Assembly (NCBI RefSeq): GCF_011745625.1
Contig: NW_027191500.1
Location: 62,001 to 115,357 of the forward strand
Length of the DNA: 53,357 nt
Direction: 5' to 3'
Origin: Cladosporium halotolerans
Taxonomy: Eukaryota
Part shown: positions 3,558 to 27,773 of the stretch, piece by piece
Numbering within the stretch: the stretch's first letter is position 1
Layout of the letters: every line of letters begins with the position of its first letter
Notes under the pieces: model-generated
Databases searched by the model: none
What the model was told of the DNA's origin: nothing
The model's input: only the letters and a program-made list of their open reading frames with translations
Position numbers and translations under genes: made by a program

Positions 3558-3574
3558 TACTAACGCGCCTCTAG
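3558..3574 (+). promoter_or_regulatory. Branch point and 3' splice site of a probable 5'-UTR intron of the Gti1/Pac2 gene
   Basis: Perfect TACTAAC at 3558-3564 followed by CTAG at 3571-3574, 65 nt upstream of the ATG at 3639. Donor not identified with certainty. Confidence 0.5.
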
Positions 3575-3638
3575 TTGCTTCTCACAAACTGTTTTCTTTC
3601 TCGATTGCACTAGCAGATCCTCAGACTGCTCGGTAGCA

Positions 3639-5033
3639 ATGGAGACATATAACGGGCACGTCCGCACTCCTGCGGACGCGATCATTCTCTTTGAAGCATG
3701 CCGTATCGGTCTCCTTCCGCGTGTTCAGAGGCGCCTTTCTGAGAAGGAAAGGCAATCGATCAAATCTGGCTCTGTCTTCGTCTGGGATGAGCGCGAGGCT
3801 GGCATGCGCAGATGGACTGATGGCAAATCCTGGAGTGCCAGCCGTGTTTCGGGCAGCTTTCTCACCTATCGCGAAATGGAGGGCAAGCGTGGAGGCAGCA
3901 GCTTCGATAAGAACGCCAGCCGAGAAGCCGCTCAAGCCAGCAACGAGCAAGACTCTGACGGCGGGCCTGACGGTTACCGCTACAAGCCTGACGGCTTGAT
4001 GAAGCAGTCTTTCTCCATCACCACGAACAACAACCAGCATCTGCACCTCATCAGCTACTACTCTCGCTCTTCGCAACAAGCACAGCACTTGATGCAGCCG
4101 ACAAATGACCCTCAGCTTCGCCACATTCGCCCCGAGAAGGGCATGTACCCCGAGTCCACAGTTCACGAACAGAGCACAATTCCTGCCGTCACTCGTGGAC
4201 CAATGGGCTCGCCTGGGTACACCCACGCAGCACACCAGCCTCCCATGTACGCACGCCCTGGCTATGGCTACCCGCCGCACCCTGCTGCTTGGGCGCCTCC
4301 CAGTCCGATGCACACGCCGCCGCCTCACCCTCACTACGGCCCTTACTACCAGCACCCCGGACATCCAGGCTACCCGCCCCACATGGGATACCCGCCTCAC
4401 CCTGCGTATGGACCGACTGCTTACGACCGACCGCCTCCTCACATGCCTGGCCACGGTCTGCCTCCGCCTCCACACTATGGACATGGCCCGCCACCGGCAG
4501 GCATGCCAGGACCTGGCTACCCGCCTTCATATCCTCCTCCTTACGCAGGCTACGGATCTTACCCGCCTCCTCCTGTCAGCTCTGCTGCTGCTTACACACC
4601 TTCGACTGCTCCTGCTTCAGCACCTCCAGCGCCCGCTCTCCCCAAAGGCGACTCTCGTCCCGTTCCTCCGCCAGTCGCCATCCCGGAGCCGAAGAAGGAC
4701 GAACGCCAGGACTCCCACCAGAGCCAACTCAAGTCGCCCGCGCAATCCACTCCGGAAGCCCAAACTCAAGCTGGCGCGCAATCGCAGTCCTCCGGTCCGC
4801 CTTCGGCCTCAGGAGCCGCAGCTCCCGCCACCAGCTCTGGCCAGACAATCCCCAGCATCCATGCCATGCTCAACGCGGGCGAAAATGGGCAGCCTCCAGT
4901 TCGCTCCAGCAGCCGCAGCCCGGGCGGTAGCCGCATGGCGTCCGACATTCCCATGCACAAGCTGGGCTTCGAGGCGAGCCGCGATGTGCAGGCGCTTAGG
5001 AACCTGGACAAGACCACTTTCAAGGCGTACTAG
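3639..5033 (+). CDS. pac2: Gti1/Pac2 (WOPR) family transcription regulator, Pac2-type
   Basis: 464-aa ORF. N-terminus METYNGHVRTPADAIILFEAC...GSVFVWDEREAGMRRWTDGKSWSASRVSGSFLTYRE and GYRYKPDGLMKQSFS...HLISYY are the two WOPR subdomains. Pro/Tyr/His-rich low-complexity C-terminal half. Confidence 0.93.
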   Translation: METYNGHVRTPADAIILFEACRIGLLPRVQRRLSEKERQSIKSGSVFVWDEREAGMRRWTDGKSWSASRVSGSFLTYREMEGKRGGSSFDKNASREAAQASNEQDSDGGPDGYRYKPDGLMKQSFSITTNNNQHLHLISYYSRSSQQAQHLMQPTNDPQLRHIRPEKGMYPESTVHEQSTIPAVTRGPMGSPGYTHAAHQPPMYARPGYGYPPHPAAWAPPSPMHTPPPHPHYGPYYQHPGHPGYPPHMGYPPHPAYGPTAYDRPPPHMPGHGLPPPPHYGHGPPPAGMPGPGYPPSYPPPYAGYGSYPPPPVSSAAAYTPSTAPASAPPAPALPKGDSRPVPPPVAIPEPKKDERQDSHQSQLKSPAQSTPEAQTQAGAQSQSSGPPSASGAAAPATSSGQTIPSIHAMLNAGENGQPPVRSSSRSPGGSRMASDIPMHKLGFEASRDVQALRNLDKTTFKAY

Positions 5034-9719: not shown

Positions 9720-11295
9720 TTACTTGACTTTATCAAACCAGATGAGCTCCTCCAATTCTGCCTCCAAATGCAAGCCCATGCTCACAGCCCGTTCGCCCTC
9801 CAGCTTGAACTCTGCGGCTATGCAATCATCGTTACCCTCTAACATCAAAGTGAGACGTGCTATGAACTTGGTCTGCTGACCAACATGCTCGAAGTGTACA
9901 ACAAAGCCACCCGATGTGCGGTCCGTCGCGTCGACGAAAAGCTCGCCATCCTTGACTGTCACCACCATCTCGTGATACCCACGGCTGGTATACGTACCTG
10001 TATACGCGCCAAGCGGTAGGCTGTGCTCCTCTGAGTTTCTCTGACCCAGGCCTAATTTCTCAAGAACCTGGTTGATGTCGCTCTCTCCATCAAGTGGTCC
10101 CTCGGCAAGGCTGGCCTGATGGTCAGACCATTGCGGCCGCTCAGATCGAGGTACCTGAAGAGCCTCATCGATTAGCTCTCTCGACAACACTGCAGCAAGA
10201 TCCCAAGCGCCACTCGCATTACCAAGTATGACGCCGCCGAACTTCTGCTCCGGTAGAAAGAATTGCGTTGAGCCGAACCCTGCAATCGAGCCATCGTGAG
10301 TGACAACCATGCTGCCGCGGTACCAATATATTTCCAAACCGCTGGCACAGACGGTAGGAGAGCACATCGGGGCTATCGAAGCTGCGTGCGGATCCGGCTC
10401 GATGAACATGCGCATTTTGACAATGCCCTCGTAGACTTCGGATGTGACAGGCCCTTCGCGGTTCAGCAGCGCTTTCACCCAGAGAAGGTAGTCTTCAGCC
10501 GTAGTGATGATCGAGCCTGCTCCCTGGCACTCGGGACTATCCCAAGCTGAGAAGCTCCGATACTTCTGTGCTTCGTCATCCCAGACGTGCCCTGCAGCCA
10601 TTCGATTGCTGAAGCCTTTCTCAATGGCTTGAGAGGGCTGCAAGCTCGTCGAGGTCATTCCTAACGGCTTGAAGATTCTCTGGCTGAGGAAATCTGAGAA
10701 GCTCAAGCCGCTAATTGATTCGACGAGGTATGAGGCGACGGTATACATCATGTTGCAGTATATGTACTTCGTCCGAGGCGGCGCCGCCATTGCGAGATTA
10801 CGAAGATTCCTTGTCACGGACTTGGGCGTGTCGGCTTTCATGGCAGTCGGGCCCATGTACGAGTCGTCATGGCTTGGAAGCATCAGTATATGAACGAGTG
10901 CATTAACCCTTCGGGACCATGGCCACTCACTTCGGCAACCCGCTCCTATGGCTCAGAATATCTTCCACTGTGACTTCGTTGGTGTATCTTACATCCGAGA
11001 GCACGAAGTCGTCAGGCAACAGCTTCGCGACAGGAGTGTCCCATTGGACTTCTGGGTGTTCTTCATCCATAACCAAGATCGCAACTGCAGCTGCTGTCAA
11101 CGACTTTGATGAAGATGCGATGTCAAACAATGTTGAGGGCGTGCATGGCGACTTCGGATCGATCGATGCCTCTCCGAAGCATTTTGATGATATTTCGCCG
11201 CCATCTATGATTGCTAATGAGACGCCAGGGACATGATGTGAAAGCAGGAGCTCGTTTACGCGCTCGGAGAGTTTGTCAGACTCGAAGAATTCCAT
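9720..11295 (-). CDS. Beta-lactamase/AmpC-family serine hydrolase with C-terminal DUF3471-like domain (2 exons)
   Basis: FDIASSSKS (SxxK), DILSHRSGLP, YCN (YxN) and HDGS motifs; C-terminal YTGTYTSRGYHEM. Intron 10930-10873. Likely start MEFFES at 11295. Confidence 0.92.
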
Positions 11296-11452
11296 GACCA
11301 AGGGAAGGGACGCGAGCCACCTAATGCACGGCGAATTACCAAAGAGGAATGCAGAAATGATCGTGCTGCGATGTTGGATAGGAAGAAAATCTGAGCTGAG
11401 ATTTTGTTGTATTATACAAGGTGACTCAACCCGAGCCGGCCTCACCGGAGGC

Positions 11453-12400
11453 CTATTCGCACAGTCTCAGCTCCAGCTGCTTCAGCTGACACCAGAAATC
11501 CCACGCCGCTCGGCTTTGCAGCGCAACGGTGGAAGTCAAAGCGAATACGATGCTGCCGACATCCGTAGGATGAATCCACCCCACATTACCATTCCAAGCG
11601 CTGACTGAAAACAGGATGAAATTCCAGGTTCCATGATATCCCACCGGCCTTGCGAGCACCCGCCACATGGAGAGATTTTCGCCTCGAGAATCTCGGCGGA
11701 TTGATTGCAGACTTGTCAAGAGTGCCATGATGGTATGGCCCGTTGCCGAGAAAATGGCGCGCTCGAAAAGCATGAGAGCAATCATGCTGCTCTTCTCGCC
11801 CTTCTCGACCGAAGCGTAGGTGACAAGAATGTTTTCGATGGTGCCGAATCCCAAGCCAGCTGCAGCGGCGTAGATGAGGTATTCATGCTCTTGCTTTGGT
11901 TGGGCACGCCAGACTGCGAAGCGAAGTGCAAAATATTTCAGTCCTTCCTCGACTGCACTTGCCCCAACATAAGACAGAATAACGAGGATCAAGGAGTATC
12001 GCGGGTTCCACGCCATCTGCCTTCGCACGTCGATTGCCTCCGTTGACAGCCCTTCAACAGTCACGCGTTGGAGTTCTCTCATGTATGATTGACTGTGAGA
12101 TCCGAAAAGTAGCTTGAAGAAGACGTGGCACAGCGACAACTGGATTGCACCAGCAATGGCGGGACCGAGAATGCTAGTCCCCAAATAAGTCCATGCTGTG
12201 ACTTCAGTATTACCGGAATCTTGGTGTGGCAATCTGCGAAGCTTCCATGCCGCAATGATCGTTGGCGATAGCAGCAGCGGAGTCAGAGCAGCAGTGGGGG
12301 GAGAGCAATATGCCAGGCCGGCGAAACTGGCAGGCAAGCCAACAGTGTAGAGTAGACGCATCGGCAAAGATGATCGAGGGGTCGGAGCAGGTGAAGTCAT
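11453..12400 (-). CDS. PrsW-family intramembrane glutamic/metalloprotease, intronless
   Basis: Multi-TM ORF with VEEGLK (EExxK), AAGLGFGTIENI (FxxxEN), a conserved H (TGH) and HGTWN (HxxxN/D), the four PrsW motifs. Confidence 0.88.
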   Translation of the reverse strand: MTSPAPTPRSSLPMRLLYTVGLPASFAGLAYCSPPTAALTPLLLSPTIIAAWKLRRLPHQDSGNTEVTAWTYLGTSILGPAIAGAIQLSLCHVFFKLLFGSHSQSYMRELQRVTVEGLSTEAIDVRRQMAWNPRYSLILVILSYVGASAVEEGLKYFALRFAVWRAQPKQEHEYLIYAAAAGLGFGTIENILVTYASVEKGEKSSMIALMLFERAIFSATGHTIMALLTSLQSIRRDSRGENLSMWRVLARPVGYHGTWNFILFSVSAWNGNVGWIHPTDVGSIVFALTSTVALQSRAAWDFWCQLKQLELRLCE

Positions 12401-13152
12401 ATTCAAGCAGTGCAAACGTGTTTGGCGGACTTCAAGTGGACTCAGCGTCAAATGATGAGTGACTTGCTCGTCCTCCTTGTCATGCGTGTTGTGTAGATTT
12501 CAAGAATGGCGAACAGATGGAACCGTCTAATAATGTCAAGAACAGGAGCATAGAGTCTCGACAGTCTCCTCGATCTAATCAGCGAGAGGTATGGGTCACA
12601 CGTCTCGGCGCCTAGTAGAATCGAAGCTCAGAGGATTGCTTGGGGATTTTTTTTAGCGAACGCGAAGTGCGGGTCGCATGCGTGCCAAAGTCCAGATCGC
12701 GAGACATTCTGAAAGCATTCACAAGCCATGCGAGGCAGGACTATTGTACTTTCGCCCTGCGTGGGAGAAGAATAGCTCAGACAACGGAGGCATGAGGAAA
12801 GCCAACAGTTAGATCGAATCGCGTGCGAATAGCGAATACTGCTGGAAGGCTCGCTCTCGACATACCTGGGTACTCTTTGGGGGTCTCGGAGATCATTTTC
12901 CATTCTACTGTCTCCATCTCTAATTGCCGGACTCAGTTTCTGTATCGATATGGTCTTAATTTGTCGAGAACAGAGAAAAGAAATGGCACCCATCGTAAAT
13001 GGGATGCAACAAACGCCGAGACAGAGCACCATTCGCCGAAGGCTGCGGGTCTGATCGTGGCGCTAGGCCGCATTAGGCACCCGAGGAACTTCTTTGAAGA
13101 TCAGCCATTAAATCTTTCAAGTCGCAAACCCCGCCATACAGAACCCCGTAAA

Positions 13153-14564: not shown

Positions 14565-15833
14565 ATGGCTTCATTCCCGCGCCTCATCATTCTGCTGCAC
14601 CTTGTGGTGGCAGCATTGCTCACGATCGCACCACAAGCCAGCGCTCTTGGTCGTGAGTGAAGAATTTCCAAGGTCATTTGCTCCTAGTCTGACCCTTGGC
14701 TATAGTGTGTGCCAAAGCCTGCTACATGAAGTACGCTCACAGATTATCCGAATGCGATGGCTTCGTTCGCGGCATCGACTGCCTTTGCCAGAAGGGCGAG
14801 GTACCGGAGGTAGGTTTTATCGCGCCCTTCCACCGACCAATGTCTGACAGATTGACAGCAACTTGTTTCTCTCTGCCATGCCAGGTGCACCGACGGTGTC
14901 TGGGACGCTGTTTTGGATTCAAAACCATGCGCCTCCTCTGGAAATGGTGTCACTGAGCTGAAGTTAATCACCCACCTTGCCTCCACGAGCACCAACGCCC
15001 GCCAAGCCAGTCTCAGCCACGGCGTCAACGTTCAGGAGGTAATGAAGACGGAAAGATTCCATCAAGGCTATGCCACAGACCGAGAAGCGCGTCAGCAAAG
15101 GCGCGCGATCATCGCCAACAGCAGATTTGCTCGTCAGGTTGGGCACGCGGAGCTGAAGTCCTATCCCGTGACCCAGGGGGCATCACCAGTGTCTAAAGAC
15201 GACCCTCACCGCAAAGGCGGCGAACCAAATGATGGACCTCATTGGGCACTTAACTCCTGCGGGTTGCCAGGAGAGTCCTGCGCCGGCAGCAGCAGTGGTG
15301 GTGCCAAGAATAAACGTAGCCTCCAGTCGGAGAAGCCGGGAGACCTGAAAGCCACTCCTGTGATCAAGCCTGACCCAACACTGGTGAGGCGCGCAGCAAC
15401 GACTCGCCCGGCCTTCACCTGGAATCCAACGCTGTGCACTGCTCCTGGTATTCCTTGTGCTGGGGGCGCCGCCCTCAACGGTCTGGCCAAGTTTGCCGAA
15501 GACGCCAAAGTCGAGAGTACCACGCAAGATGACTCTCCCGAAGTGGTGAAGCGCGATCTGAGTTCCCGCAAAGCTACCCGCGATGACAAAGGATGGAGAC
15601 CAACGCTTTGCGGAGTGCCAGGCATCTCTTGTGCTGGATCCGGCAATGGTGATGGCACTCGCACGAAGCGAAGCACACCGCTCACCGACAGCCCCAACGC
15701 AGCGCCACTTCGTCCTGATGCTAGGTTGATGATCCAGGCGCATGAGCCGAAGGTACACAAGGCCGAGGCTGGCCATGGCAGTGCTTTCGAAGCCAGCGTC
15801 CACGCCGACTTTGAGGCTTCAGATGGCCAATAA
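14565..15833 (+). CDS. Secreted protein: signal peptide + CFEM-like 8-Cys domain + three Cys-Pro-Gly peptide repeats flanked by dibasic sites (3 exons)
   Basis: Exon 1 14565-14652 (MASFPRLIILLHLVVAALLTIAPQASA, signal peptide). Introns 14653-14705 and 14810-14858 (alternative donor at 14801) are phase-compatible. The spliced product contains CAKAC-x10-C-x8-CLC-x12-CHARC-x13-C and continues into the 14913-15833 ORF. Confidence 0.8.
15243..15638 (+). repeat. Three copies of the peptide motif W-x4-C-x2-P-G-x2-C-A-G at 58-59 codon spacing
   Basis: WALNSCGLPGESCAG (15243), WNPTLCTAPGIPCAG (15420), WRPTLCGVPGISCAG (15594). Confidence 0.9.
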
Positions 15834-16373: not shown

Positions 16374-18182
16374 TCAGCCGATCCAGACGCCACCGCCACC
16401 TGAGCCGCGGTGCTTGTAGATATCATCACCAATCGACTCCTTCGCTACCCTCTCCTTCAACTTCTCAACCTCTTGCATCTCGGCCTCGAGCACGCCCACA
16501 CGCGCCTCGTCGAGCGTCTGCCCTTTCACGCCACCGTTGCCGCCAAACCAGCCGCGCCACTCGAACCATCCTGCGCTCTGCCCGCCTTCTCTAGCGCGCA
16601 GGTCGACATTCGTGTCGGCGAGCTTGAGGAGCATGGCTTCCCAATTCGACGCACCAGCGCGAAGGCAGGATTTGCACTGCTGCTTCTCTTCGGGCGTAAG
16701 GTAGTGCTGGCCTTTGCTGGCGTCCAAATTCGCCTCGGCAATTTGCGTCGCTTGCTTCGTCCAGCTGAGTCCTTCTGCGGAGTTGGGCGAGCTCGCGAAG
16801 AGAATCTCGCCGATGTACAGCATCAGCTCGCCTTCATCGCAGGTCGAGAGAGGAGTCTCGCGCACGAACGGTCTGTCGCCAGATGGTGGTTGAGAGGGGA
16901 AGACAGGGGCGCGGAAAAGGCTGGAGATCATGGAGACGGCGGCATCGAGGTCGGAGCCACCTTCGGATTGCTTGGATGGTGCAATGCGTCGGGCAGGATT
17001 AGGCGAGACAGGTGCGGAGCGTCGCGCACGGAGGACAGAGAGAAAGATTGGGAGGGCAAAGGCTACATCGCCATCGCGGGCGCGGTGTGTGGCTAGTTTC
17101 GTGACGGCATCGAGTATGTTCGGGGTTGCTGTTTCAGCGCCTGCCATCGCTGCTGCGTTGCTGGTCTGTCGATCCTTGAGGACCAACGTTTTCGGGTCAA
17201 GCACAGCATCCGGAGTTTGCAGAGCGGATTTCGCAATGTCGACGCCCCATTTGTACATTTCTTCGGCACTGTCGTTGAGACCCGTCTGCTCCAGCCATGC
17301 AGCGTATTTCCACGCAGCTTCAAGGCGCTGCTTGGTAGTGAAGCCTTTGCCGGTCAGCACGCGCATGTAGAAGCTCTCCGGCGTGTCGAACGCTCTAGTA
17401 GTGTTCTCTTCCAGAGGTGGAGTCCCCATGTAAGCTGCTGGCGGCCTCGGATCCGGGTTCGAGGGTCCGATCACGACCTCTTTCGGGAAAACAAGGCGTC
17501 GCGTAGTATCCAAGACCATGTCGTTCAAATGCTCAGCAGTCTCCGCACAGCCCATCAGCACCTCGAAGTACCCAGCTCGCCACTCCCAGCTCTTGTTAGA
17601 AATGTCCAGGCCTGCCTTCCCAACATCGGGTATCACGATGCCTTCCCCATCTGCTTGTTCCATCACATCTTTTCCATCGGTCGATCCCTCCAGTCGCAAA
17701 AGTGCTTTCATGTAGTCCGACCCGACCATCGCCCAGTCCACAAGGCCTATCCTGCTGCGGTCTTCTCTTGCGAATCTGGCTCCTCGCACATAGTTCTTCG
17801 TCCAGAAAGTCCATTCCGCAGGAGTAGGGTTGTTTCGCTCGTCAATCGCAATCTGTATGCCGAACCAGGAAATACCGGCGAGCGCTAGAAATGTCCAGCC
17901 GATCAGAGTCCATCGCGCCGCGAGCACGGTCTGGTCCTTGACATAGCGCTTGGTCTCCGTACTGAGCAGACGCAGCACTTGCTGATCGAGAGGCGACAAT
18001 CGACGCGCAAGGTGAGGCTGTGAGAGATATGGGAGCTGTGGACGAATCGTGTGCCTCGTGAGCACGAGGAGCTTGCTGTTCTGCGTGAATGCGCGCGGTC
18101 GTGGGAGGATTCCATTTGCGGTCGGTGATCGATGAGCTCGAATTGCTGGCAACCGGCCTCCTGCCGCTGCTCTTGACAACAT
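16374..18182 (-). CDS. Conserved fungal hypothetical protein, probably mitochondrial (presequence, one TM, TPR-like helical region)
   Basis: About 600-aa intronless ORF. Arg/Ser/Leu-rich N-terminus lacking acidic residues; hydrophobic segment WTLIGWTFLALAGISWFGI; motif FPKEVVIGPSNPDPRP. Confidence 0.8.
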   Translation of the reverse strand: MLSRAAAGGRLPAIRAHRSPTANGILPRPRAFTQNSKLLVLTRHTIRPQLPYLSQPHLARRLSPLDQQVLRLLSTETKRYVKDQTVLAARWTLIGWTFLALAGISWFGIQIAIDERNNPTPAEWTFWTKNYVRGARFAREDRSRIGLVDWAMVGSDYMKALLRLEGSTDGKDVMEQADGEGIVIPDVGKAGLDISNKSWEWRAGYFEVLMGCAETAEHLNDMVLDTTRRLVFPKEVVIGPSNPDPRPPAAYMGTPPLEENTTRAFDTPESFYMRVLTGKGFTTKQRLEAAWKYAAWLEQTGLNDSAEEMYKWGVDIAKSALQTPDAVLDPKTLVLKDRQTSNAAAMAGAETATPNILDAVTKLATHRARDGDVAFALPIFLSVLRARRSAPVSPNPARRIAPSKQSEGGSDLDAAVSMISSLFRAPVFPSQPPSGDRPFVRETPLSTCDEGELMLYIGEILFASSPNSAEGLSWTKQATQIAEANLDASKGQHYLTPEEKQQCKSCLRAGASNWEAMLLKLADTNVDLRAREGGQSAGWFEWRGWFGGNGGVKGQTLDEARVGVLEAEMQEVEKLKERVAKESIGDDIYKHRGSGGGGVWIG

Positions 18183-18405
18183 CGTTGGAGGTTGCAATAG
18201 CTGTGCTTCTCGCTAATGACTGCCTTCGTCCCGCTGCTATAGGACTTGATGATGCGCGGCTGGTGTCCCCGCGCTCCGCAACTTGCCCTTCCCTTTTGGG
18301 ACTAGCTTCAATACATCGTGCTGTGAGTTATGCTACATGTTGCTGCCGACTCATTGCGCAAGGACATGATTTTAGGAAGACGAAGTTTGAAGTGGCATAT
18401 CAAGA

Positions 18406-19149
18406 ATGGAGACCCCAGGGCCGGAGAGCGTCACATTGAAACCCTCCGACCAGACCCTCGCGGAGCTGGAAGACCGGCTGGACAATCTCTGGGAAACGTA
18501 CCTGGCGCTTTTGGACAAGTACACGAAAGCACAAGATGAGCTCAAGAAGCATCTGACTTCTGGCTTCTTATCCTTGGCAAAAGCGCAGTCCAGCGCGCCG
18601 CTTGGTAGACGCTACGGCCAGGATTGGTACGACGAGCGAATGAAGGCTGCTCGACGCGTTCAGGTATCGACCGATCCATCCCAACAGAGCAAAGGCTCGG
18701 AGATGGCACGCATTGGGAATCTCAGGATCTCCATGGTGACAGCGAAATCGCAACCTGACAATGAAGAGCCACCTGTGGAATCGAGCGAGAAGCAGCCAGC
18801 GCAACAGCCTTCGCCACCAAGCACGCCAGAACCTGAAGTGTCAGCCGAGCAAACCGATGACGAACTGCCAAATCACGAGGAGAAGACACGCGCCTCTGAT
18901 TCATTGAAATGGTATGGCATCTTGGTGCCATCTGAGCTCAGGAAAGCCCAGGCGTCATTTTCTGCCATTCTTTCACACAATGGCACTACCAGCGAGGCTG
19001 AGGATCCTGCTGGCGAACAAAATCTAGTCACGGATGCCGTCAACGCCAGCCGAGGTCTGAGAGAAATGGAGACCGAGATCCGGAAGGTCAGGAAGGCAGT
19101 GAAAAAGGCGGAGAAGACAGAAAAGGCTAAGATTGCTGCTGTTGCTTGA
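18406..19149 (+). CDS. VMA22: V-ATPase assembly factor Vma22/CCDC115 family
   Basis: LDNLWETYLALLDKY...GFLSLAKAQ...RRYGQDWYDERMKA and LKWYGILVPSELRKAQASF motifs; C-terminal coiled coil. Confidence 0.85.
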   Translation: METPGPESVTLKPSDQTLAELEDRLDNLWETYLALLDKYTKAQDELKKHLTSGFLSLAKAQSSAPLGRRYGQDWYDERMKAARRVQVSTDPSQQSKGSEMARIGNLRISMVTAKSQPDNEEPPVESSEKQPAQQPSPPSTPEPEVSAEQTDDELPNHEEKTRASDSLKWYGILVPSELRKAQASFSAILSHNGTTSEAEDPAGEQNLVTDAVNASRGLREMETEIRKVRKAVKKAEKTEKAKIAAVA

Positions 19150-19478
19150 GATACTCACATGCCTTGACAACTCACATGCTGAGTTATCTGATCACTTTTC
19201 ACCGTCCTAGCAGACTTCTATGTTCTTCGAAAGCTTGTTGGCAGTCGGTCTCATGAGCGTAAGCCATTTGTGACGATGCGGTGTTTGCTCGTCAGGCCTT
19301 GCTTCCCCGCCATATATATCTGCTATGTACGTTTCCCTTGGGCTTCGAGTTCGATTCATGTTCAGTTCCTGCACGATCAGATCCAACACCTACGAAGCTG
19401 CTGTTTCTCTTCATTTGTATCGATACCACCAACCTAACTCCGTTGCCTTGACTGCAATCCAGGCGGAAGCTTGCAAGT

Positions 19479-22400
19479 ATGAGAGCACGGCGCTCGTGCG
19501 GTCATGCGCTACCAAGCCTGTTACTTTTCCAGCTTCTCGTGCTTTTCAATTTCTGGGGTGTCATAGCAAAAGTACACTTACCTCAAAACGTCGGGGAGCA
19601 ACCGGAACATGTATTGGCACGGCACGAGAGCATCCCTCCAGCCTCGTCATCCGTATCAGAGATCCAGTGTACTTCTACAGAACTCCAAGGCCATGGCTGC
19701 CAGGGTGCTCAAAGGTGCCCTCCGTCGCGGAAACTGGCTCACCACTCGGAGCATGACGATCCAAGAGCTTTACTGAAGACGAACGGAACCCTTTTCCCAC
19801 GCCAGGATAATGACGATGACAAAAGAGACTGGCAAGCATGGGTGAGCAAAGGGAAAGATCTTCTTGACATGCTTACATGTGGTACTGGTCCCCAAAGTAA
19901 GTGGACTTCCTTCGACGATTTGAAGACATGGGGTTGGTCACGAAAGGAAAAGAAAGTCGACTACCCAGGATTCCTCCCCAAAGACGTGCCAAAATACCTG
20001 GGGGATCCAGTCTTAGCGGACGAGCTTTGGGAAGTTGTCGACGAGCACACGAAGACTACGATCAATGACGATACGCTGTATTATGCAACCGATGCGATGT
20101 ATGGAAACTTTTACAGCTCTTCACTTATCATATCGGACACCAATTATGGCCCCGAAACCGAGGGCCCATCCCAAAATCCGCCGGTGGATGGCGAGAGGTA
20201 CCCGTTCCCAAAACTTGGTCGACTCAGCGATGTCCTTTTTCTAGAATTTCAAGAACGCATGGAAGTTCTCGAGAAGCCGACAAACAAACTCAAAGGACAC
20301 CTCAGAGCAGGCATCGTCAACCGGCATACCAAAACCATCGTCAAAAAGGCCCTCAATGATGACGGCAAAATATGGCCCAGTTGGCCAGGCCGCGACTTCA
20401 CACCGGACACAGAAGGATTTTCTGCTCTCTTGGCGAGTCCTAACGGGCGAGGTATGTTGATTGATACATCTCCTTTAGTTGAAATGATCTCACGCTGATA
20501 TTGTAGGGGTTGCGTGGTTCCTCGGAACCCACGTTGAACAGCTGGGCCACAAAACCATATCCAATATACGAGTACTTGGCCAGGGTGCCAAGCTTCACAT
20601 CCTGTTCGTCTTTGAGGATGTCGCCAGATCGCAGGATGATAAGCAGTCCACAAGCGAAACATTGGAGCAAACCCCCGAAGCAAATCCTACCAGCTTCGCG
20701 CACGCGCACGGTAACAGCCTTGCAGAGCATCCTGCAATTTTTATACGCAGCGACACCAAGCCTTCACCAACACAGTCTCCAACTGTTGTTGAATCTGGAG
20801 TGCCACGAGATTGGGAGCAATGGGTTTCCAAAGGTAAAGCTTACCTCGAGATGCTGAACTGTGGCACTGGCGAGCAGAGTATATGGAAATCGTACGACAA
20901 CTTGGAGGAGAATGGCTGGGAGCAAGCGCGGGTGCGACACCCGGTTTATATATACGACACGTCGGCCCTCAAGAGAGTCATGAGGCTTCTCAAAGTATCT
21001 TCGGAACCGCAAGACCAATGGGTTGTGTCCAGTAAGCATCTCAAAAAGACGACTAAGGATGGCAAGGTATACTATCCGACTGGAGCGAAGTACGAAAACA
21101 AATACAACATGGAGCTGATAACGGCGGAATCGAACTTCGGACCTCAGAACGAAGGCCCGAAGCAGAAAGAACCTCCTGTGACGGGTGATCCAAACCCCTT
21201 CCCTCCATTGAAACAGCAGAGCGACGTGATATACTTGGAGTTCACGCGGCTGATGAAGCTTAACAAAAAGCCTATTGACAAACTTAAGGGCTTCTTTCGG
21301 CCTTATATTGTCAACTCGGAAACTCGAAGTATTGTAGCGAAGGCATTGGGAATTCCTGTGGATCAATTTAGCATGATTCCAGAGTGGCCCGGCCACGACT
21401 TCGAGCCGGGTTCAGACGAGTTTGCGGCATTGCTCGCAAGCCCCAACGGGAGAGGCGTCGCCTGGTTTCTCGCTACACACAAGGATTTGGGACATAAGAC
21501 CATATCCAGCATCAAGGTGTTCAAGGATTTTGGACTTTGTATCCTGTTTGTCTTTGAAGACGTCAGAGGTGGACTCGACCAACAACAGCCTTCAAGCTCG
21601 GGATCTAGTGAGCTTATACGGAGACATTCAGCATTCGAGCTGAAGCGTCGAGCACTCTCTGATAGCCAGCGTAAAAAGTTCGTCACAAAAGGCAGAGATC
21701 TTCTGGCAGCTCTCGAATCTGAGTCTCATTGTTTCCCCGAGGCAACCTTCACAAACTATCAGGACCTGGACGACTGGGGCTGGACGGTTTTTATAGAGCG
21801 CGAAGGACTTGGCGCTATCAAGGAGTCTGCAACCCAGGTATACGACCTTTTAGGGGCTTCAATGGAGCCAGCGGAAAACATCATTGTTACTGATGACCAT
21901 GATGAGGCGAGGGAGAAAGGCTCAACCACCTATCATCCTACCGGAGCGTTGTACCTGAATCTTTACAATCCAAATCTAATAACGGCTATTTCGAATGATG
22001 GTCCAGCATCAGCAGGGAGACGGAAGGACCCTCCGGTTACGGGATCACCAGCAATGCCTTTCCCGATCTTGTCACACTCGTCGGACGTCATGTTTCTCGA
22101 ATTCCAAAGGACCATGGCAGAGATGAATCAACCAATGACGAAGCTGAAAGGCATCTGGCGAAATAATGTGATCAACGAAGAAACGGAGGAACTTGCGATT
22201 AGCATATCAAGCTCAACTGATGATATTTTCGGTATTCCTCGGTGGCCTGGCGTCGACATAGCCGCCAACAGCGACGAGCTGGCGGCTTTGGTTGCGGCAC
22301 CGAACGGTCTAGCAGTCGCATACCTCATGCTCCAGCACCGTCGACAATTGGGCTGGAAGACCGTCACTTCGGCCAAAATCTGGTACGAGAACTACAAATT

Positions 22401-25317
22401 CCACGTGCTATACTTGATCGGAGATGTTTCGAACACGCCGGACGAGTCTCTTGAGGCTGGCTCTGAACAGGCCGGTCGTCAAGACCACGGATCGGCTTCC
22501 TCTACACGACGTGTAGGTGGGCATTTCAGACCTATCAAACGTGCCAGGCTGCATTCAGATTACGATGACTATGCAGTGAAAGGAAAGGCTCTACTCTTGG
22601 CCCTCGAGTCCAGAACAGAGTGCGCAGCTCAAAGCGAGTGGATCAAAGACGAAGCGCTCTCTACTTGGGGTTGGCGTAGCATTCGAAATGCCAAAGTGGG
22701 CCCTGCATCTTCCGACATGGCCATGAAGCAGGTCTTCGAATATGTTGGGGCGTCTATGGAAGATGGGACGAACCACCAAGCGTACACTTCCCATTTGGAT
22801 GCCGAAGTCATTGATGGAACCACATACCGCAGGACGGATGCCGAGTTCAATAACAGATACAATCCAGCTATGATCATAGCGGAGACCATCTATGGGGTGG
22901 AGTACCAAGGGCAAACTCAAAAACCACCCGTGACTGGCAAGCCCGATCCATTTCCGAAGTTGAGATTCTGGTCGGACGTTACCTTTTTGGAGTATCAGAA
23001 CTTCATGAAATCTTCTAGCCAGTCTTTGGAATCCTTGAAGGCCGTTTGGCATTCGGCCGTCATCAACGAGGAGACTCAAGACCTCGCTGCAAGCTTCTTC
23101 GGAGTGGAGGAATGGACTGACATATCCGGCTGGCCCGGCAAAGACTTCACTTCAGGGTCAAAAGAGCTCGACGCACTGGTTGGTTCTGCTAATGGTAAAA
23201 GCGTGGCCTTTCTGTTATTGGAACATCGTAAGCAACTTGGGAATAAGGTCATCAACAAAGCCCGTGTCTGGAAGAACGAGACCCTGCACGTCCTGTACAC
23301 AATCGAAGACGCTCACACATGTGTCGATGATGATTCTAACAACTCTAAGGCACATGATCGGAGGCTTATCCGTCGAGTAGGCGAGACCGGTGCTACTTCA
23401 GTTGCGAAAGCTAAGAATGCTGGTTTGTTCTTCGTCTCGGCGCAAGATTCGCCTACCGATATCCTGGAGAGCTGTTTGAGGATCAGGCAAAGCAGTTTCG
23501 TAAGAATAAAGCAACTCAGGGACTCTGGCTGGACCCAGGTCGGCTCTGATCGCCAAGAAGCTGTTGAAGAAGAAAAGGATCGTGCCACCTTCGATTCCTG
23601 GCTGGATCTCAACTTGGATCTAAGAGCAGGCAGAAATCACAGGATATCATACCAACATCTTCGAAAGACCACGGGCAGCGACGTGAAAGCCTATCACCCA
23701 TCAGGTGCCTACTACAACAATCTCTTCACTGAAGGAGGTATCGTTGCTCTGGACAACGCAAGCCCGTGGGCGACAGGTCGCAGTATGAATCCGCAAGTGG
23801 ACGGAAACCGCAATCCATTCCCGCCGTTGAAGCAATGGAGTGACGGAGCATTCCTCGTGTATCAGGACATCTGCAGGGGCGACGCGAAAGCAATGAAGTC
23901 GCTCAGAGGTGTTCTTAGACACACCGTCACGAACACTCCAACAAGAGCAGCTCTCCAGGAGTACTTAGGCAAACAAGGCGAACTCGAGGCCAATATACCG
24001 AAACCATGGCCAGGCACGTTGTACACGTTGAAGGATGAGGGTTTCGTCATCGCACTTGGCACACCCAGCGGCAAGGGTGTGGCATACTTGCTCGCCACGC
24101 ATCGCGAGAGTCTGGGCTGGAAAGAGATCTACCAAATCCGCATTTTCAGTGCGGACTGGAGCTCGCCTTACAACATCCTGTACTACATCAGAGACCACAG
24201 GACCAACCCAGCACGCCTCCGTTCTCGAGCGCTCCTTGCGAGCGGTGGCTCCGGTTCATCTGCCTCTCCGTCTTGCGACACCCACCAGCTCGTGCGCAGG
24301 AACGTCTCCGTCACCTCATCCAGCCTTGCCAAAGATTCACATTCGCCCGGTACCAGCAACGACGCAGAATACAACCGCGCCCTCGAACGCGGCGCCCGCC
24401 TCCTCTGCGAACTCTACGCCAGCCCCAGCCAAGTCGACCAAAGCTCCTGGACAGACCCTTCCTCCCTCGCCACCCACGGCTGGGTCGAAACAACTAAATC
24501 TCCCACGGACACCAACTTCCAGCCCTTCAGCGCCATCGGCGCCGCCCTCAAGGATCTGAAAATCTCCACTGCGCCCGAAGACAACATCCTGCAAGCCTTC
24601 GTCCACGCAAAAGAATCCACACACGCGGGCCACACCTACCCTGCCACGAACGCCAGCTACAGCAACGTCTTCAACGCCAAAGCAGGCGCCATAATCGCCG
24701 ACTCCAACACGCCGCCCAGGAACCCAGCAATTAACAACCCCTTCCCCCTTTCCCAATACTCCGACGTCGTCTTCCTCGCCTGTCTAGCCGCCGCCGGCCC
24801 CTCAGCCAAAAACCTCAGATACATCTTCCGCGGCCCCGTCGCGGACCCCAGCACCCTCGCCATCGCTCAGCGCGCGCTAGCTAACCGCGGCAAAGACCTC
24901 GCCGCTTGGCCGGGCGAGAAAATCGGCATGGCGGAGGCGGACGCGCAGGCGCTTCTGGGCTCGCCGAGTGTGTTGGGAGTCGGCTATTTGCTGGCGCAGC
25001 ATAAGGATGTGCTTCGAGTGAAGGTTGTTGAGAGTGTTACGGTTTTTGAGGCGGATGGGGCGGTGGGGTTGTGTTTTTGGATTGGTGATGTTGCGGACGG
25101 AGCGGAGGGTGGGCTGCTGCCGACTGGCTTGATGGGGGAGTTGGCGGCGGCCGCGGAGGAGCAGCATGATGCTGTGCGTGTGAAACGCGCTGAAGTTGGT
25201 GTGGTTGGCAATTCGACTGGTTCGATGGTGCCGGAGGTCTACTCGACGTGGACGGCGGTTGTTAGAAAGCGTTTCAGTAACGCGGCGGGCAAGGCTTGGT
25301 CTGCTTTTCGGTTGTGA
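19479..25317 (+). CDS. Large secreted polyprotein (1927 aa) with six tandem homologous ~250-aa domains of unknown function (2 exons)
   Basis: Signal peptide LLLFQLLVLFNFWGVIA. Intron 20452-20506 (GTATGT...GCTGAT...TAG) joins ORF 19479-20498 in frame to ORF 20662-25317 and restores ALLASPNGR-GVAWFL, identical to the motif in the next repeat. Confidence 0.9.
19827..25092 (+). repeat. Six divergent intragenic domain repeats
   Basis: Approximate spans 19827-20622, 20809-21564, 21655-22428, 22555-23310, 23398-24195 and 24361-25092. Each has GW, Y-x-x-T/S-x-A-x-Y/F-x-N, PFP..SD.x(F/Y)L, WPG, an AL..(S/T/A)P(N/S)G-like segment and H..(.)L.xK motifs. Confidence 0.92.
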
Positions 25318-25845: not shown

Positions 25846-27773
25846 TTACCAAGCACCAGGAGCGGCGGCAGAAGGAGCCTCATCGGCAGTGGATCCAGTA
25901 CCAGCATCGGCAGAGAAGTCGGCAGCATCAGAGGTGAAAGCGGTATCCGCGGCGGCCACATCGTCCTCATCGTCCTCATCGTCGGATTCGTCGTCGAAAA
26001 CAGCTTGGCCATCCGCAGGAACAAATTCAGCCAGGAAGTCCGGGATCTCGCACTTTTGCTCGAGCAGAATGTTGACGAGGGCAGAGGCGATGTCCTGATC
26101 ACGCTCGGCGTCATAGAACGAGGTCGCACGACCTTCGTTACCGATGCGACCGGTCCTGCCAATTCTGTGGACGCATTCGGTGATGCCACCATACGCGGTG
26201 GACGGCAAGTCGAAGTTAATGACGTGCATAATGCCTGCGACGTCGAGGCCGCGAGCGGAAACGCCAGTCGCGACCAGGATGGGGATTTCTCCATGACGGA
26301 AGGCGCGCAGGGAGAACTCGCGCTCACGTTGACCTCTGTTCGAGTGGATGGCAGTGACAGGCAAGTGGCGCTGGTAGAGGTATGCGTCTAAGGCGTCGAC
26401 AGTGTGCTTTGCGTTGCAAAAGATGAGTGTCCTCACTTTCGGCCCGTCGAGCAGAAGGTCGAAGCAGGCCTTCATCTTCAGGTACCCGGCAACGTTGATG
26501 ACGTCTTGCGTAATGTTCATGTGCGTTGAGCCAGGACGACCCACGGCCAGACGGTAGTGATCGGAGGTCAAGTACTCACGGGCCACCTTGCGAATCTCTT
26601 TGGGAAACGTCGCAGAGAACATCATGTAGACGTGGTCGGCGTCCTCATTGGCGTCGCCGCCACCCAGAATCTTCGACATCTCCGTCTCCCAATCCCCATG
26701 AAGCATCTCATCTGCCTCATCGATGATGGTGTAGAGAACACGAGACATAGAAAGAACTTCAGGCCTGTTGATGAGGTCGCAGAGACGGCCAGGGGTCGAA
26801 ATCAGAATGTCCGCGCCTCTGCTGAGCTGGTCAAGGGTAACACCCATGTGCTGACCACCGCAGGTGAAGACAGGCCGCAGCATGCTGCGATAGCAAAAGC
26901 GGCGGCATTCATGGAAGACCTGCGCGGCCAATTCCTGCGTGGGAACGACAATCACCACGATTGGCTCGGCCTTCACGCGGTGATTACGGACGTCACCACT
27001 GGTGGAAGAAAACTTCGGGCGCGGAGCGCAGACCTGCTTCGCCTTGCCCATCAGGCGAGAGATGACTGGAACCAAGTACGCAGCTGTCTTGCCTGAGCCT
27101 GCCATAGGTGTCAGTAGGAGCTTGTAACAAAACGCGCAGGAGACGTACCAGTCTGCGAAACGGCGACCACATCATTGCCAGAGAGCACGGCTGGGATGGT
27201 GTAAGCCTGGATCGCAGTGGTCCTGTTCCAGCCGATCTTGTTGGTGATGGTGTCGAGCACTAGCGGGTGCAAGCCAGCGGCGGCGAACTGGGAACGAAGT
27301 CAGTAATAGATCACCGGTGAATGGACTATGGGATGGCTTACGGTGCGGACATGGAAGAGCTTGAGAGGACCTTCCACTGAGCAAGGCAGATCAAGATTGT
27401 CGAGCTTTTCTCCCTCGCGCGTGCGAAACGGGTCGTTGAAGAGTTGCTTCTCCAGCTCCGGCTGCTCAGGGCCAACCTCGCCATATTCATCGTCCCACTC
27501 GTAGACCGCATGGTGCTTCGCGTGCTCGGCGAAGGCGTCATCGTGAGTTTGGTGATAGTTCATGTTAGAGGGAACCGCGCTCCAACCAGCAGCCTTAGCC
27601 TTCTCACGAAAGGCTTCATCTTCCTCAACGGTCATGTTGCCAGCGAGAGCGGTGACCTGCTCGATTGCGGCGTCGTCATTGGCGTCAGTCTCGATATGAC
27701 CGGCGTGGTCGAGATCGTTGGTCGCGGCAAAGTCACCATTGGCGCTGCCGTTCTGATGGTAGTCGGCCATCAT
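25846..27773 (-). CDS. DEAD-box RNA helicase, Ded1/DDX3-like paralog (3 exons)
   Basis: Introns 27341-27288 and 27148-27099 restore the Q motif and SQT-GSGKT. Also PTQELA, TPGRL, DEAD, SAT, ARGLD and HRIGRTGR; N-terminal YEWDDEYGEVGP motif. Confidence 0.93.

What the first reader, a model, noticed from the sequence alone, without database searches (positions are those of the whole stretch)
19479..25317. Six-domain secreted polyprotein with Kex2-type linkers: a candidate multi-effector cassette
Seen: one 1927-aa product (two ORFs joined by intron 20452-20506) with a signal peptide and six diverged ~250-aa domains. They share PFP..SD..(F/Y)L (PFPKLGRLSDVLFL, PFPPLKQQSDVIYL, PFPILSHSSDVMFL, PFPKLRFWSDVTFL, PFPPLKQWSDGAFL, PFPLSQYSDVVFL), WPG, a mostly conserved PNG segment and an invariant His. 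Low-complexity linkers end in basic sites: DKR|DW, VPR|DW, LKRR|A, IKR|A, LIRR|V, LVRR|N, and VKR|A after the last domain. I recognise no named domain. Inference: Kex2 releases up to six paralogous globular proteins from one gene. Invariant Asp, His and Asn/Tyr residues suggest an enzyme or toxin fold, with surface divergence giving different targets.
Basis: partly seen in the sequence, partly recalled or inferred. Interest (0 to 1): 0.8.

Follow-up and report, generated by a model that had tools for sequence, protein, structure and literature searches.

The report
Six-domain secreted fungal polyprotein gene
One fungal gene encodes a secreted chain of six related copies of a widespread but uncharacterised protein domain, joined by floppy linkers that carry conserved protease cutting sites, so the cell probably releases six separate proteins whose job is still unknown.

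Summary
A 55-nt canonical intron (20452-20506) joins two exons into a 1927-aa product. It has a hydrophobic leader and six diverged ~260-aa repeats (23-50% pairwise identity).

The repeat belongs to a large family with no name. A profile found 2726 cluster representatives at E<=1e-3, and 0 of 95 members hit a relevant Pfam family. Every source name I looked up is 'hypothetical' or 'uncharacterized', except one UniRef label 'Fucose-specific lectin'. Named members come from Dothideomycetes and Eurotiomycetes. Most members have one domain; relatives carry up to seven.

Linkers are disordered and poorly conserved (0-35% identity against 33-62% for domains, apart from one 11-residue linker that is mostly the site itself). 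They still keep Kex2-type sites, roughly L-x-[K/R/P]-R then Ala. Among 49 internal linkers, 26 have this motif against 6.6+-2.4 in shuffles.

Processing into six ~31-35 kDa proteins plus a conserved C-terminal peptide is therefore well supported by comparison but not shown. A host-directed 'effector cassette' role is not supported. This is a new variant of Kex2-processed repeat proteins.

The parts
19479..20451 (+). Exon 1: start codon, hydrophobic leader (about residues 1-30), 86-aa pro-region ending in DKR (residues 31-116), and most of domain 1
20452..20506 (+). 55-nt intron (GTATGT ... CTGAT ... TAG) inside domain 1
   Evidence: sequence; the repeat profile continues across it in another frame; the unspliced frame stops at 20496-20498.
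20507..25317 (+). Exon 2: end of domain 1, domains 2-6, linkers, C-terminal peptide and stop codon
19827..20649 (+). Domain 1 (residues 117-372, spans the intron)
20812..21603 (+). Domain 2 (residues 427-690). This copy was modelled: pLDDT 94.7, pTM 0.91.
21649..22458 (+). Domain 3 (residues 706-975)
22459..22542 (+). Linker 3/4 (residues 976-1003) with two basic sites (RR 992-993, KR 1002-1003). It lies within the segment modelled with pLDDT < 50.
22543..23343 (+). Domain 4 (residues 1004-1270)
23377..24243 (+). Domain 5 (residues 1282-1570). It is 53-62% identical to the more distant orthologs, the highest range of the six.
24301..25173 (+). Domain 6 (residues 1590-1880). In the tree it groups with single-domain family members.
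25189..25314 (+). C-terminal 42-aa peptide after VKR (residues 1886-1927). It has an N-x-T sequon, an internal RKR and a basic Trp-containing end that recurs in orthologs.

Best explanation
The gene encodes a secretory-pathway polyprotein. It consists of a signal peptide, an 86-aa pro-region, six paralogous ~260-aa globular domains of an uncharacterised family of filamentous ascomycetes, and a conserved 42-aa C-terminal peptide.

The domains are joined by disordered linkers of low conservation. Each linker ends in a Kex2-type site, roughly L-x-[K/R/P]-R followed by Ala, and often has a second dibasic site a few residues upstream.

The inferred mechanism is that the kexin (Kex2) of the late Golgi cuts after these arginines. 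This would release up to six separate proteins of about 31-35 kDa (before glycosylation), short spacer peptides and the C-terminal peptide, all made in equal numbers from one transcript.

Each domain has an alpha/beta fold that most resembles GNAT-type acyltransferases. It also keeps a constellation of conserved polar residues: His76, Tyr87, Asn99, Asn108, Ser137-Asp138, Arg163, Asn168, His223 and Lys229 in domain-2 numbering. I therefore take each unit to be an enzyme or small-molecule-binding module acting in the secretory lumen, at the wall or outside the cell. The six positions would have become specialised.

Shown: gene structure, repeats, family size, the confident fold model, linker disorder, and site enrichment and conservation. 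Inferred: actual cleavage, secretion, and any activity.
For: Architecture.

Family. 2726 cluster representatives at E<=1e-3, 1408 at <=1e-10 and 154 at <=1e-30. There is no Pfam family: 0 relevant hits in 95 members and none precomputed on the 19 longer relatives. In my sample of 169 family proteins that matched the repeat profile, 120 have one domain and 49 have two to seven.

Secretory leader. Of 88 M-start members with at least 45 aa before the first domain, 61 have a strongly hydrophobic 15-mer there, against 0 of 244 control windows.

Sites around domain starts. In the 30 aa before a domain start through its first 4 residues, dibasic pairs occur in 65 of 126 cases against 89 of 747 interior windows. 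[LIV]-x-[KRP]-R occurs in 51 of 126 against 37 of 747.

Sites in internal linkers. In 49 non-redundant internal linkers, dibasic pairs occur in 35 against 21.0+-3.0 in composition-preserving shuffles (0 of 1000 reach the observed value). [LIV]-x-[KRP]-R occurs in 26 against 6.6+-2.4 (0 of 1000). The residue after the last Arg is Ala in 23 of 45.

Orthologs. Colinear relatives are 47% (P0014) and 44.5% (P0015) identical. They keep the P1 Arg at the aligned junctions in most rows, for example L-x-R-R in 8 of 9 aligned rows at junction 4/5 (a tenth starts inside the motif), and mostly L-x-P-R then Ala at junction 3/4. Linker identity is only 0-35%, apart from the 11-residue linker 4/5 (18-73%), against 33-62% for domains (these ranges leave out the close relative P0206).

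Tree. Positional orthology of domains 2-6 with SH-aLRT support of 95 or more.

Structure. The tandem model of domains 3-4 has both domains folded and the linker holding both sites at pLDDT < 50. The single-domain model has pLDDT 94.7 and pTM 0.91. GNAT-type proteins head three fold libraries.

Kex2 specificity (P1 Arg, tolerant P2, aliphatic P4) is taken from passages of PMC8528282.
Against: There is no direct evidence of cleavage, secretion or expression. The laid contigs all cross the intron unspliced and are probably DNA.

One junction in the window (VPR before domain 2) is not dibasic, and several ortholog junctions have Ala, Ser or Leu at P2.

Dibasic enrichment outside domains is not significant in two relatives (P0015 p = 0.06; P0031 p = 0.37).

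Dibasic pairs are not depleted inside domains (180 observed against 197+-12.6 in shuffles), so some could be cut or none.

The Arg-Ala pair may partly be a structural feature of the start of the first helix rather than a protease site.

The samples contain related proteins, so the counts are not fully independent.
Confidence: 0.55

Rival explanations
1. The protein is secreted or wall-bound largely intact, as a beads-on-a-string array of six domains, perhaps after removal of the pro-region only. The linkers act as flexible tethers that raise the local concentration or avidity of six related modules. The basic motifs are used rarely or for something else.
For: The multidomain architecture has been kept colinear in relatives only about 45% identical, with positional orthology. 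That would also be expected if physical linkage mattered. The tandem model has pTM 0.65, which neither shows nor excludes some packing between neighbours. One window junction and several ortholog junctions lack a canonical dibasic pair.
Against: Motif-level enrichment in linkers goes beyond composition: 0 of 1000 shuffles reach the observed counts. The P1 Arg is conserved in otherwise free-drifting linkers. Paired sites that would excise 4-10-aa spacers are typical of processed precursors. Most family members are single-domain and have the same kind of site before the domain, so the unit works alone.
Confidence: 0.25
2. The six released proteins are host-directed effectors or toxins of a plant pathogen, and their surface divergence gives them different host targets.
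For: Family members occur in plant pathogens such as Fulvia fulva, Cercospora zeae-maydis and Alternaria. Kex2-processed pro-domains are common among fungal effectors (PMC8528282, passages). The six copies have diverged to 23-50% identity while keeping core residues.
Against: Named members also come from rock-inhabiting fungi (Meristemomyces, Recurvomyces), a lichen-associated fungus (Bogoriella), and the genera Penicillium, Paecilomyces, Penicilliopsis and Cladosporium. That these are mainly saprobes or extremotolerant fungi is my own knowledge. The gene sits between Vma22-type and DEAD-box helicase genes in an ordinary housekeeping region. The domains are large and have only 0-2 cysteines each (16 in the whole protein), unlike typical apoplastic effectors. 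No toxin or effector fold was matched.
Confidence: 0.1
3. The domains are true GNAT acyltransferases. They use an acyl-CoA inside the secretory pathway, or in a target cell, to acylate proteins, wall polymers or small molecules. The six copies would have six specificities.
For: GNAT-type acetyl/acyltransferases and their relatives fill nearly all top rows in PDB and in viral models: Rtt109, NatD, Gcn5, malonyl-CoA decarboxylase, FemX and the ICL2 C-terminal domain. The family has conserved polar residues and a conserved T-P-N-G-x-G segment that resembles the GNAT motif Q/R-x-x-G-x-G/A (the GNAT motif is recalled, not tested by a tool).
Confidence: 0.25

Closest known systems
KEX2-processed repeat proteins (KEPs), for example the alpha-factor precursor, Ustilago Rep1, Candida Ece1 and dikaritin RiPP precursors
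   Same: A signal peptide, three or more repeats in one precursor, and repeats separated by KR/RR-type sites that the Golgi kexin would cut. The survey in PMC6339444 (sections 6 and 24 read) defines KEPs this way and reports repeat sizes of 3-352 aa.
   Different: Characterised KEPs give short peptides; the commonest size class in Dikarya is 9-24 aa. Here each unit is a folded ~260-aa domain of a family that mostly exists as single-domain proteins. The copies are only 23-50% identical, and several sites are L-x-x-R rather than dibasic. I could not tell whether this family is among that survey's large-repeat cases: a supplement search for four motifs found nothing, and the held supplement text may not contain sequences.
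Kex2-processed pro-domain (K2PP) effectors, for example SnTox3 and ToxA
   Same: A disordered N-terminal pro-region ending in KR/RR/LxxR directly before a folded secreted domain (PMC8528282, passages). Single-domain family members and the window's residues 31-116 look like this.
   Different: K2PP proteins have one pro-domain and one mature domain. Here the unit 'linker plus site plus domain' is repeated six times. No effector role is indicated.
Nematode polyprotein allergens/antigens (for example ABA-1) and multi-domain plant proteinase-inhibitor precursors (recalled, no call)
   Same: A precursor of many tandem folded units is cut at basic sites by a furin/kexin-type convertase into separate small proteins.
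   Different: Different kingdoms, unrelated folds and much smaller units (about 15 kDa and about 6 kDa). Their copies are usually more alike.
GNAT / acyl-CoA N-acyltransferase-like fold superfamily, including Rtt109/p300, malonyl-CoA decarboxylase and FemX; and Aquifex AQ1966 (PDB 2ARH, function unknown)
   Different: No sequence-level relation. Identity in the structural alignments is 1-12%. The model has about 100 residues of extra elements, including a long N-terminal helix and a Pro-rich loop. The canonical cofactor loop is not in the expected place. The location is secretory rather than cytosolic or nuclear.

Membership tests
KEX2-processed repeat proteins (KEPs; definition of PMC6339444) | Signal peptide and no further membrane span | tested here: inconclusive
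   The hydrophobic N-terminal leader was judged by Kyte-Doolittle windows and by eye. No SignalP or TMHMM was available.
KEX2-processed repeat proteins (KEPs; definition of PMC6339444) | At least three similar fragments delimited by KR/RR (or KK) sites | tested here: met
   Six similar domains. KR/RR sites precede domains 1, 3, 4, 5 and 6 and follow domain 6; the site before domain 2 is PR. Whether that paper's motif search (Fimo) would join fragments only 23-50% identical was not tested.
KEX2-processed repeat proteins (KEPs; definition of PMC6339444) | Repeats occupy at least 15% of the protein | tested here: met
   Domains cover 1629 of 1927 residues.
KEX2-processed repeat proteins (KEPs; definition of PMC6339444) | Actual cleavage by Kex2 and release of the units | not testable with these tools
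   Only indirect support: linker disorder and conservation and enrichment of the sites.
GNAT (GCN5-related N-acetyltransferase) superfamily | Sequence match to a GNAT family model | tested here: not met
   No acetyltransferase family among the Pfam hits of 95 members at E<=0.01 or of the window protein at E<=1. PDB sequence-profile searches found no GNAT.
GNAT (GCN5-related N-acetyltransferase) superfamily | GNAT core fold (mixed sheet with helices, beta1-alpha1-alpha2-beta2-4-alpha3-beta5-alpha4-beta6) | tested here: inconclusive
GNAT (GCN5-related N-acetyltransferase) superfamily | Pyrophosphate-binding loop Q/R-x-x-G-x-G/A between beta4 and alpha3 (motif recalled) | tested here: inconclusive
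   A conserved T-P-N-G-x-G exists, but the model places it between two helices. The loop before the helix I map to alpha3 carries W-S-D and no glycine. The mapping was made without coordinates.
GNAT (GCN5-related N-acetyltransferase) superfamily | Binds acyl-CoA and transfers the acyl group | not testable with these tools
   Needs biochemistry.
Kex2-processed pro-domain (K2PP) proteins | Disordered N-terminal pro-region followed by KR, RR or LxxR before the folded domain | tested here: met
   Residues 31-116 precede domain 1 and end in DKR. The same layout is seen in single-domain relatives. Disorder of this particular stretch was not modelled.

The most novel reading that the evidence does not exclude
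The polyprotein works like an operon within one protein chain. Kexin cutting delivers equal numbers of six specialised paralogues of a new secreted enzyme family with a GNAT-like fold. These act together, either as a hetero-oligomeric extracellular or wall-modifying machine or as a six-step or six-specificity acylation toolkit. A conserved basic C-terminal peptide would be a seventh product. Positional orthology of each copy in relatives only about 45% identical fits specialised, non-interchangeable units.
Probability: 0.12. Interest if true: 0.85.

Novelty: new variant of a known kind. Interest (0 to 1): 0.6.

Why it matters
Kexin-processed precursors in fungi are known as sources of short peptides: pheromones, repellents, candidalysin and RiPP cores. 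A precursor that yields six different folded ~30 kDa proteins would extend that principle to whole enzymes or binding proteins. It would also be a way to co-express paralogues in fixed ratio in a eukaryote.

Separately, the domain defines a large secretory family of filamentous ascomycetes: 2726 representatives of 50%-identity clusters. It has a confident predicted structure but no Pfam entry and no literature that I could find. It is a clear target for family curation and for a first biochemical assignment. If it proves to be an acyltransferase working outside the cytosol, that would be unusual for fungi.

Tried and rejected
RNA evidence for splicing or expression. The look-up of sequencing runs listed no holder on record as RNA. 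Four runs were laid (X1-X4). No joints were found, and contigs from all four cross the intron unspliced. Some of these runs hold contigs of 17-130 kb and are probably DNA. This gives no information either way.

Complex prediction, meant to test whether domains 3 and 4 bind each other, was not available. Hetero-oligomer formation was therefore not tested.

ESM Atlas. No usable hit for domain 2. For relative P0059 the Atlas's own model is poor (pLDDT 0.29), so its structure neighbours are meaningless.

PDB sequence and profile searches gave only chance-level rows: designed TIM barrels at E 0.27 and 6, and hnRNP Q at E 1.1.

Pfam gave only a sub-threshold LSU hit (E 0.061, 13.8 bits against a cut-off of 30), plus YjcQ and LSU in one member each of 95. 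I rejected these as chance.

Whole-genome search: no genome is held for this window. Presence in bacteria was therefore not tested directly, and the profile-search library carries no taxonomy.

Earlier findings of this scan: none by place or by sequence.

Literature. Six locus tags of relatives gave 0 papers. '2ARH/AQ1966' returned only chemistry papers. GNAT + secretome + AlphaFold + fungal + effector returned one irrelevant review. Kex2 + polyprotein searches found nothing on this family. PMC9816061 does not mention GNAT or acetyltransferase.

Depletion of dibasic pairs inside domains is not significant.

A bacterial promoter/terminator scan upstream of the gene is irrelevant for a fungus.

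GPI anchoring was rejected by inspection: the last 22 residues have a mean hydropathy of -0.11.

Full report
**1. Observation**

The stop-to-stop frames 19452-20498 and 20488-25317 are joined by a 55-nt intron at 20452-20506. It has canonical fungal signals: GTATGT at the 5' end, a CTGAT branch site and a TAG 3' end. Splicing gives a 5784-nt CDS and a 1927-aa product with no internal stop. Unspliced, the frame ends at 20496-20498.

A profile built from the six copies supports the intron independently. When run over the six-frame translation, it matches copy 1 as two pieces that abut at the intron: profile positions 5-222 end at 20453, and positions 220-270 start at 20500 in another frame. It finds no further copy in the window.

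These are six PFP...SD...(F/Y)L strings, six WPG motifs and the seven basic sites. The six copies are 23.3-50.2% identical pairwise. There is no DNA-level tandem repeat, so the array is old.

**2. The domain is a large family with no name**

Pfam finds nothing in the window protein and nothing relevant in 95 family members. PDB sequence searches find nothing.

A profile of copies 2-6, searched against 1.84 billion cluster representatives, found 2726 proteins at E<=1e-3. Of these, 1408 are at <=1e-10 and 154 at <=1e-30.

Every source name I looked up is 'hypothetical' or 'uncharacterized', except one UniRef label, 'Fucose-specific lectin', on a Cercospora protein; I take that to be a cluster-naming accident. 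The named organisms fall in two classes:
- Dothideomycetes: Cladosporium fusiforme, Fulvia fulva, Recurvomyces, Meristemomyces, Alternaria, Cercospora, Amniculicola, Trichodelitschia, Ampelomyces and Bogoriella.
- Eurotiomycetes: Penicilliopsis, Paecilomyces and Penicillium.

In my sample of 169 family proteins, 120 have one domain. The rest have two (31), three (9), four (4), six (4, including the window protein and two near-identical Fulvia entries) or seven (1). Nineteen longer relatives carry no other Pfam domain, so no fusion partner hints at a function.

Of 88 members that start with Met and have at least 45 residues before the first domain, 61 have a strongly hydrophobic leader. The figure for control windows is 0 of 244. 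Several of the other 27 look like weaker signal peptides or truncated gene calls. The family therefore belongs to the secretory pathway.

**3. Fold**

AlphaFold2 was run on copy 2 with a 95-sequence alignment. It gave pLDDT 94.7 and pTM 0.91. The model is an alpha/beta domain with a long N-terminal helix.
- Foldseek against PDB gave no match at E<=1e-3. The best rows (E 0.036-0.1) are mainly acetyltransferases and GNAT-like proteins: NatD, the CurA GNAT-like domain, malonyl-CoA decarboxylase, Gcn5/PCAF and Rtt109.
- Predicted viral structures again put NAT_SF/GNAT proteins first, at E>=0.01.

Across the 95 sequences, Asp138 is invariant. His223, Gly35, Leu142, Gly227, Ser137, Leu133, Leu220 and Gly8 are present in 92% or more. 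His76, Tyr87, Thr90, Asn99, Asn108, Arg163, Asn168, Thr171, Asn212, Gln222 and Lys229 are present in 64-89% (domain-2 numbering). The Ser-Asp pair and both histidines are kept in all six window copies, so none looks degenerate. Such a dense polar constellation fits a catalytic or ligand-binding site.

**4. Linkers and processing**

*Within the window protein.* Dibasic pairs are 11 in 298 residues outside domains and 5 in 1629 inside (p = 2e-6). The relatives P0014 and P0016 show the same (p = 5e-5 each) and P0022 more weakly (p = 0.008). P0015 (p = 0.06) and P0031 (p = 0.37) do not reach significance.

*Across the sample.* I examined the stretch from 30 residues before a domain start through its first 4 residues. 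It contains a dibasic pair in 65 of 126 cases, against 89 of 747 interior windows. It contains [LIV]-x-x-R in 93 of 126 against 156 of 747, and [LIV]-x-[KRP]-R in 51 of 126 against 37 of 747.

*Composition control.* Linkers differ from domains in composition, so I shuffled each of 49 non-redundant internal linkers. Ten near-duplicate proteins and linkers over 120 aa were dropped first.
- Dibasic pairs occur in 35 linkers against 21.0+-3.0 in shuffles.
- [LIV]-x-x-R occurs in 38 against 23.7+-3.2.
- [LIV]-x-[KRP]-R occurs in 26 against 6.6+-2.4.

None of 1000 shuffles reaches the observed value for any of the three. The residue after the last Arg is Ala in 23 of 45.

*Orthologs.* The window protein was aligned with ten multi-domain relatives. 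In most aligned rows the P1 Arg is kept at the junctions:
- Junction 4/5: L-x-R-R in 8 of 9 aligned rows (a tenth row starts inside the motif); one row has L-V-L-R.
- Junction 3/4: mostly L-x-P-R followed by Ala.
- Junction 5/6: Arg-Ala in most rows.
- After domain 6: K-R followed by Ser or Ala in several rows.

Leaving out the close relative P0206 (89-99% identical in the domains it covers), the remaining relatives are 33-62% identical in the domains and 0-35% in the linkers. The exception is the 11-residue linker 4/5, which is mostly the site itself (18-73%).

This pattern of P1 Arg, K/R/P at P2 and an aliphatic P4 is the extended Kex2 motif described in PMC8528282 (passages read).

*Structure and products.* In a tandem model of domains 3-4 (pLDDT 86.1), both domains fold as copy 2 does. 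The 40 residues between them, which hold both basic sites, have pLDDT below 50. The pTM of 0.65 gives no clear sign of fixed packing.

Three window linkers carry two sites that would excise spacers of 9, 10 and 4 residues. The predicted products are 34.5, 30.9, 31.7, 30.8, 34.2 and 31.0 kDa, plus a 4.5-kDa C-terminal peptide.

*Against.* Dibasic pairs are not depleted inside domains. One window junction is P-R. Nothing here shows cleavage directly.

**5. Age of the array**

The window protein is colinear with a 2213-aa Cladosporium fusiforme protein (47% identity; seven domains) and with an unnamed 1833-aa protein (44.5%; six domains).

I built a quick maximum-likelihood tree of 44 domains from 18 proteins; domains that matched less than 180 profile positions were left out. 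The careful search did not finish, so support values are SH-aLRT only. Window domains 3, 4, 5 and 6 each group with the equivalent-position domain of those relatives (97, 98, 100 and 97). Domain 2 does so with one relative (95). Domain 1 is unresolved within the domain 1/2 group. Domain 6 lies nearer to single-domain proteins than to domains 1-5.

The array is therefore ancient, and each position is conserved separately.

**6. Context**

Flanking genes are ordinary fungal housekeeping genes. A Vma22-type gene lies upstream at 18391-19149 and a DEAD-box helicase downstream at 25846-27171 on the minus strand. Also in the window are Gti1/Pac2, an F-box gene, an MMM1-like gene and APC5. I saw no biosynthetic or effector cluster.

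**7. Verdict**

The processing inference is well supported by comparison but unproven. The effector-cassette reading is not supported.

The closest known kind is the KEX2-processed repeat protein. Its published definition already spans repeats of 3-352 aa (PMC6339444, sections 6 and 24). Its characterised members, however, yield peptides, not folded paralogous domains. I found no paper on this family (searches; PMC9816061 checked). Supplements of the KEP survey that may list large-repeat cases could only be searched as held text, without a hit.

Noticed in passing
window 25189-25314 (residues 1886-1927), and the C-termini of P0015, P0018, P0019, P0032, P0202 and P0204: After the last KR site the orthologs share a C-terminal peptide: an N-x-T sequon, then a basic stretch (roughly E-R-L-x-R-A-I-x-x-R), then a Trp-containing end such as ...W..LRLF. 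The window version has an internal RKR. It is not hydrophobic enough for a GPI signal. Its function is unknown; it could be a sorting signal or a bioactive peptide.
   Followed up: partly
single-domain relatives, for example P0053, P0074, P0098 and P0121: Many single-domain members start with a charged N-terminus followed by a long hydrophobic span that looks like an uncleaved type II signal anchor. A spacer and a KR site then precede the domain. This suggests release from a membrane-anchored precursor by kexin.
   Followed up: no
P0203, P0210, P0212 and P0005: These relatives carry an extra Cys- and Phe-rich hydrophobic segment of about 40 aa inside the domain 2/3 linker. It may be an unspliced intron in automated gene calls or a real insertion.
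   Followed up: no
P0016 residues about 943-1293: This five-stretch relative has a long Thr/Ser/Ala/Glu-rich low-complexity region and what looks like a degenerate extra copy between its third and last domains. Copies can therefore decay within arrays.
   Followed up: no
window 3564-5033 (+): A Gti1/Pac2 (Wor1/Sge1-type) regulator homolog (Pfam E 6.9e-45).
   Followed up: no
window 9720-12499 (-): A beta-lactamase-fold protein with DUF3471 (9720-10952) lies next to a PrsW-type intramembrane protease homolog (11453-12499). The latter family is mainly bacterial, which I state from recall.
   Followed up: no
window 16374-18212 (-) and 14856-15833 (+): Two long open frames (612 aa and 325 aa) with no Pfam match at E<=1e-3.
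   Followed up: no
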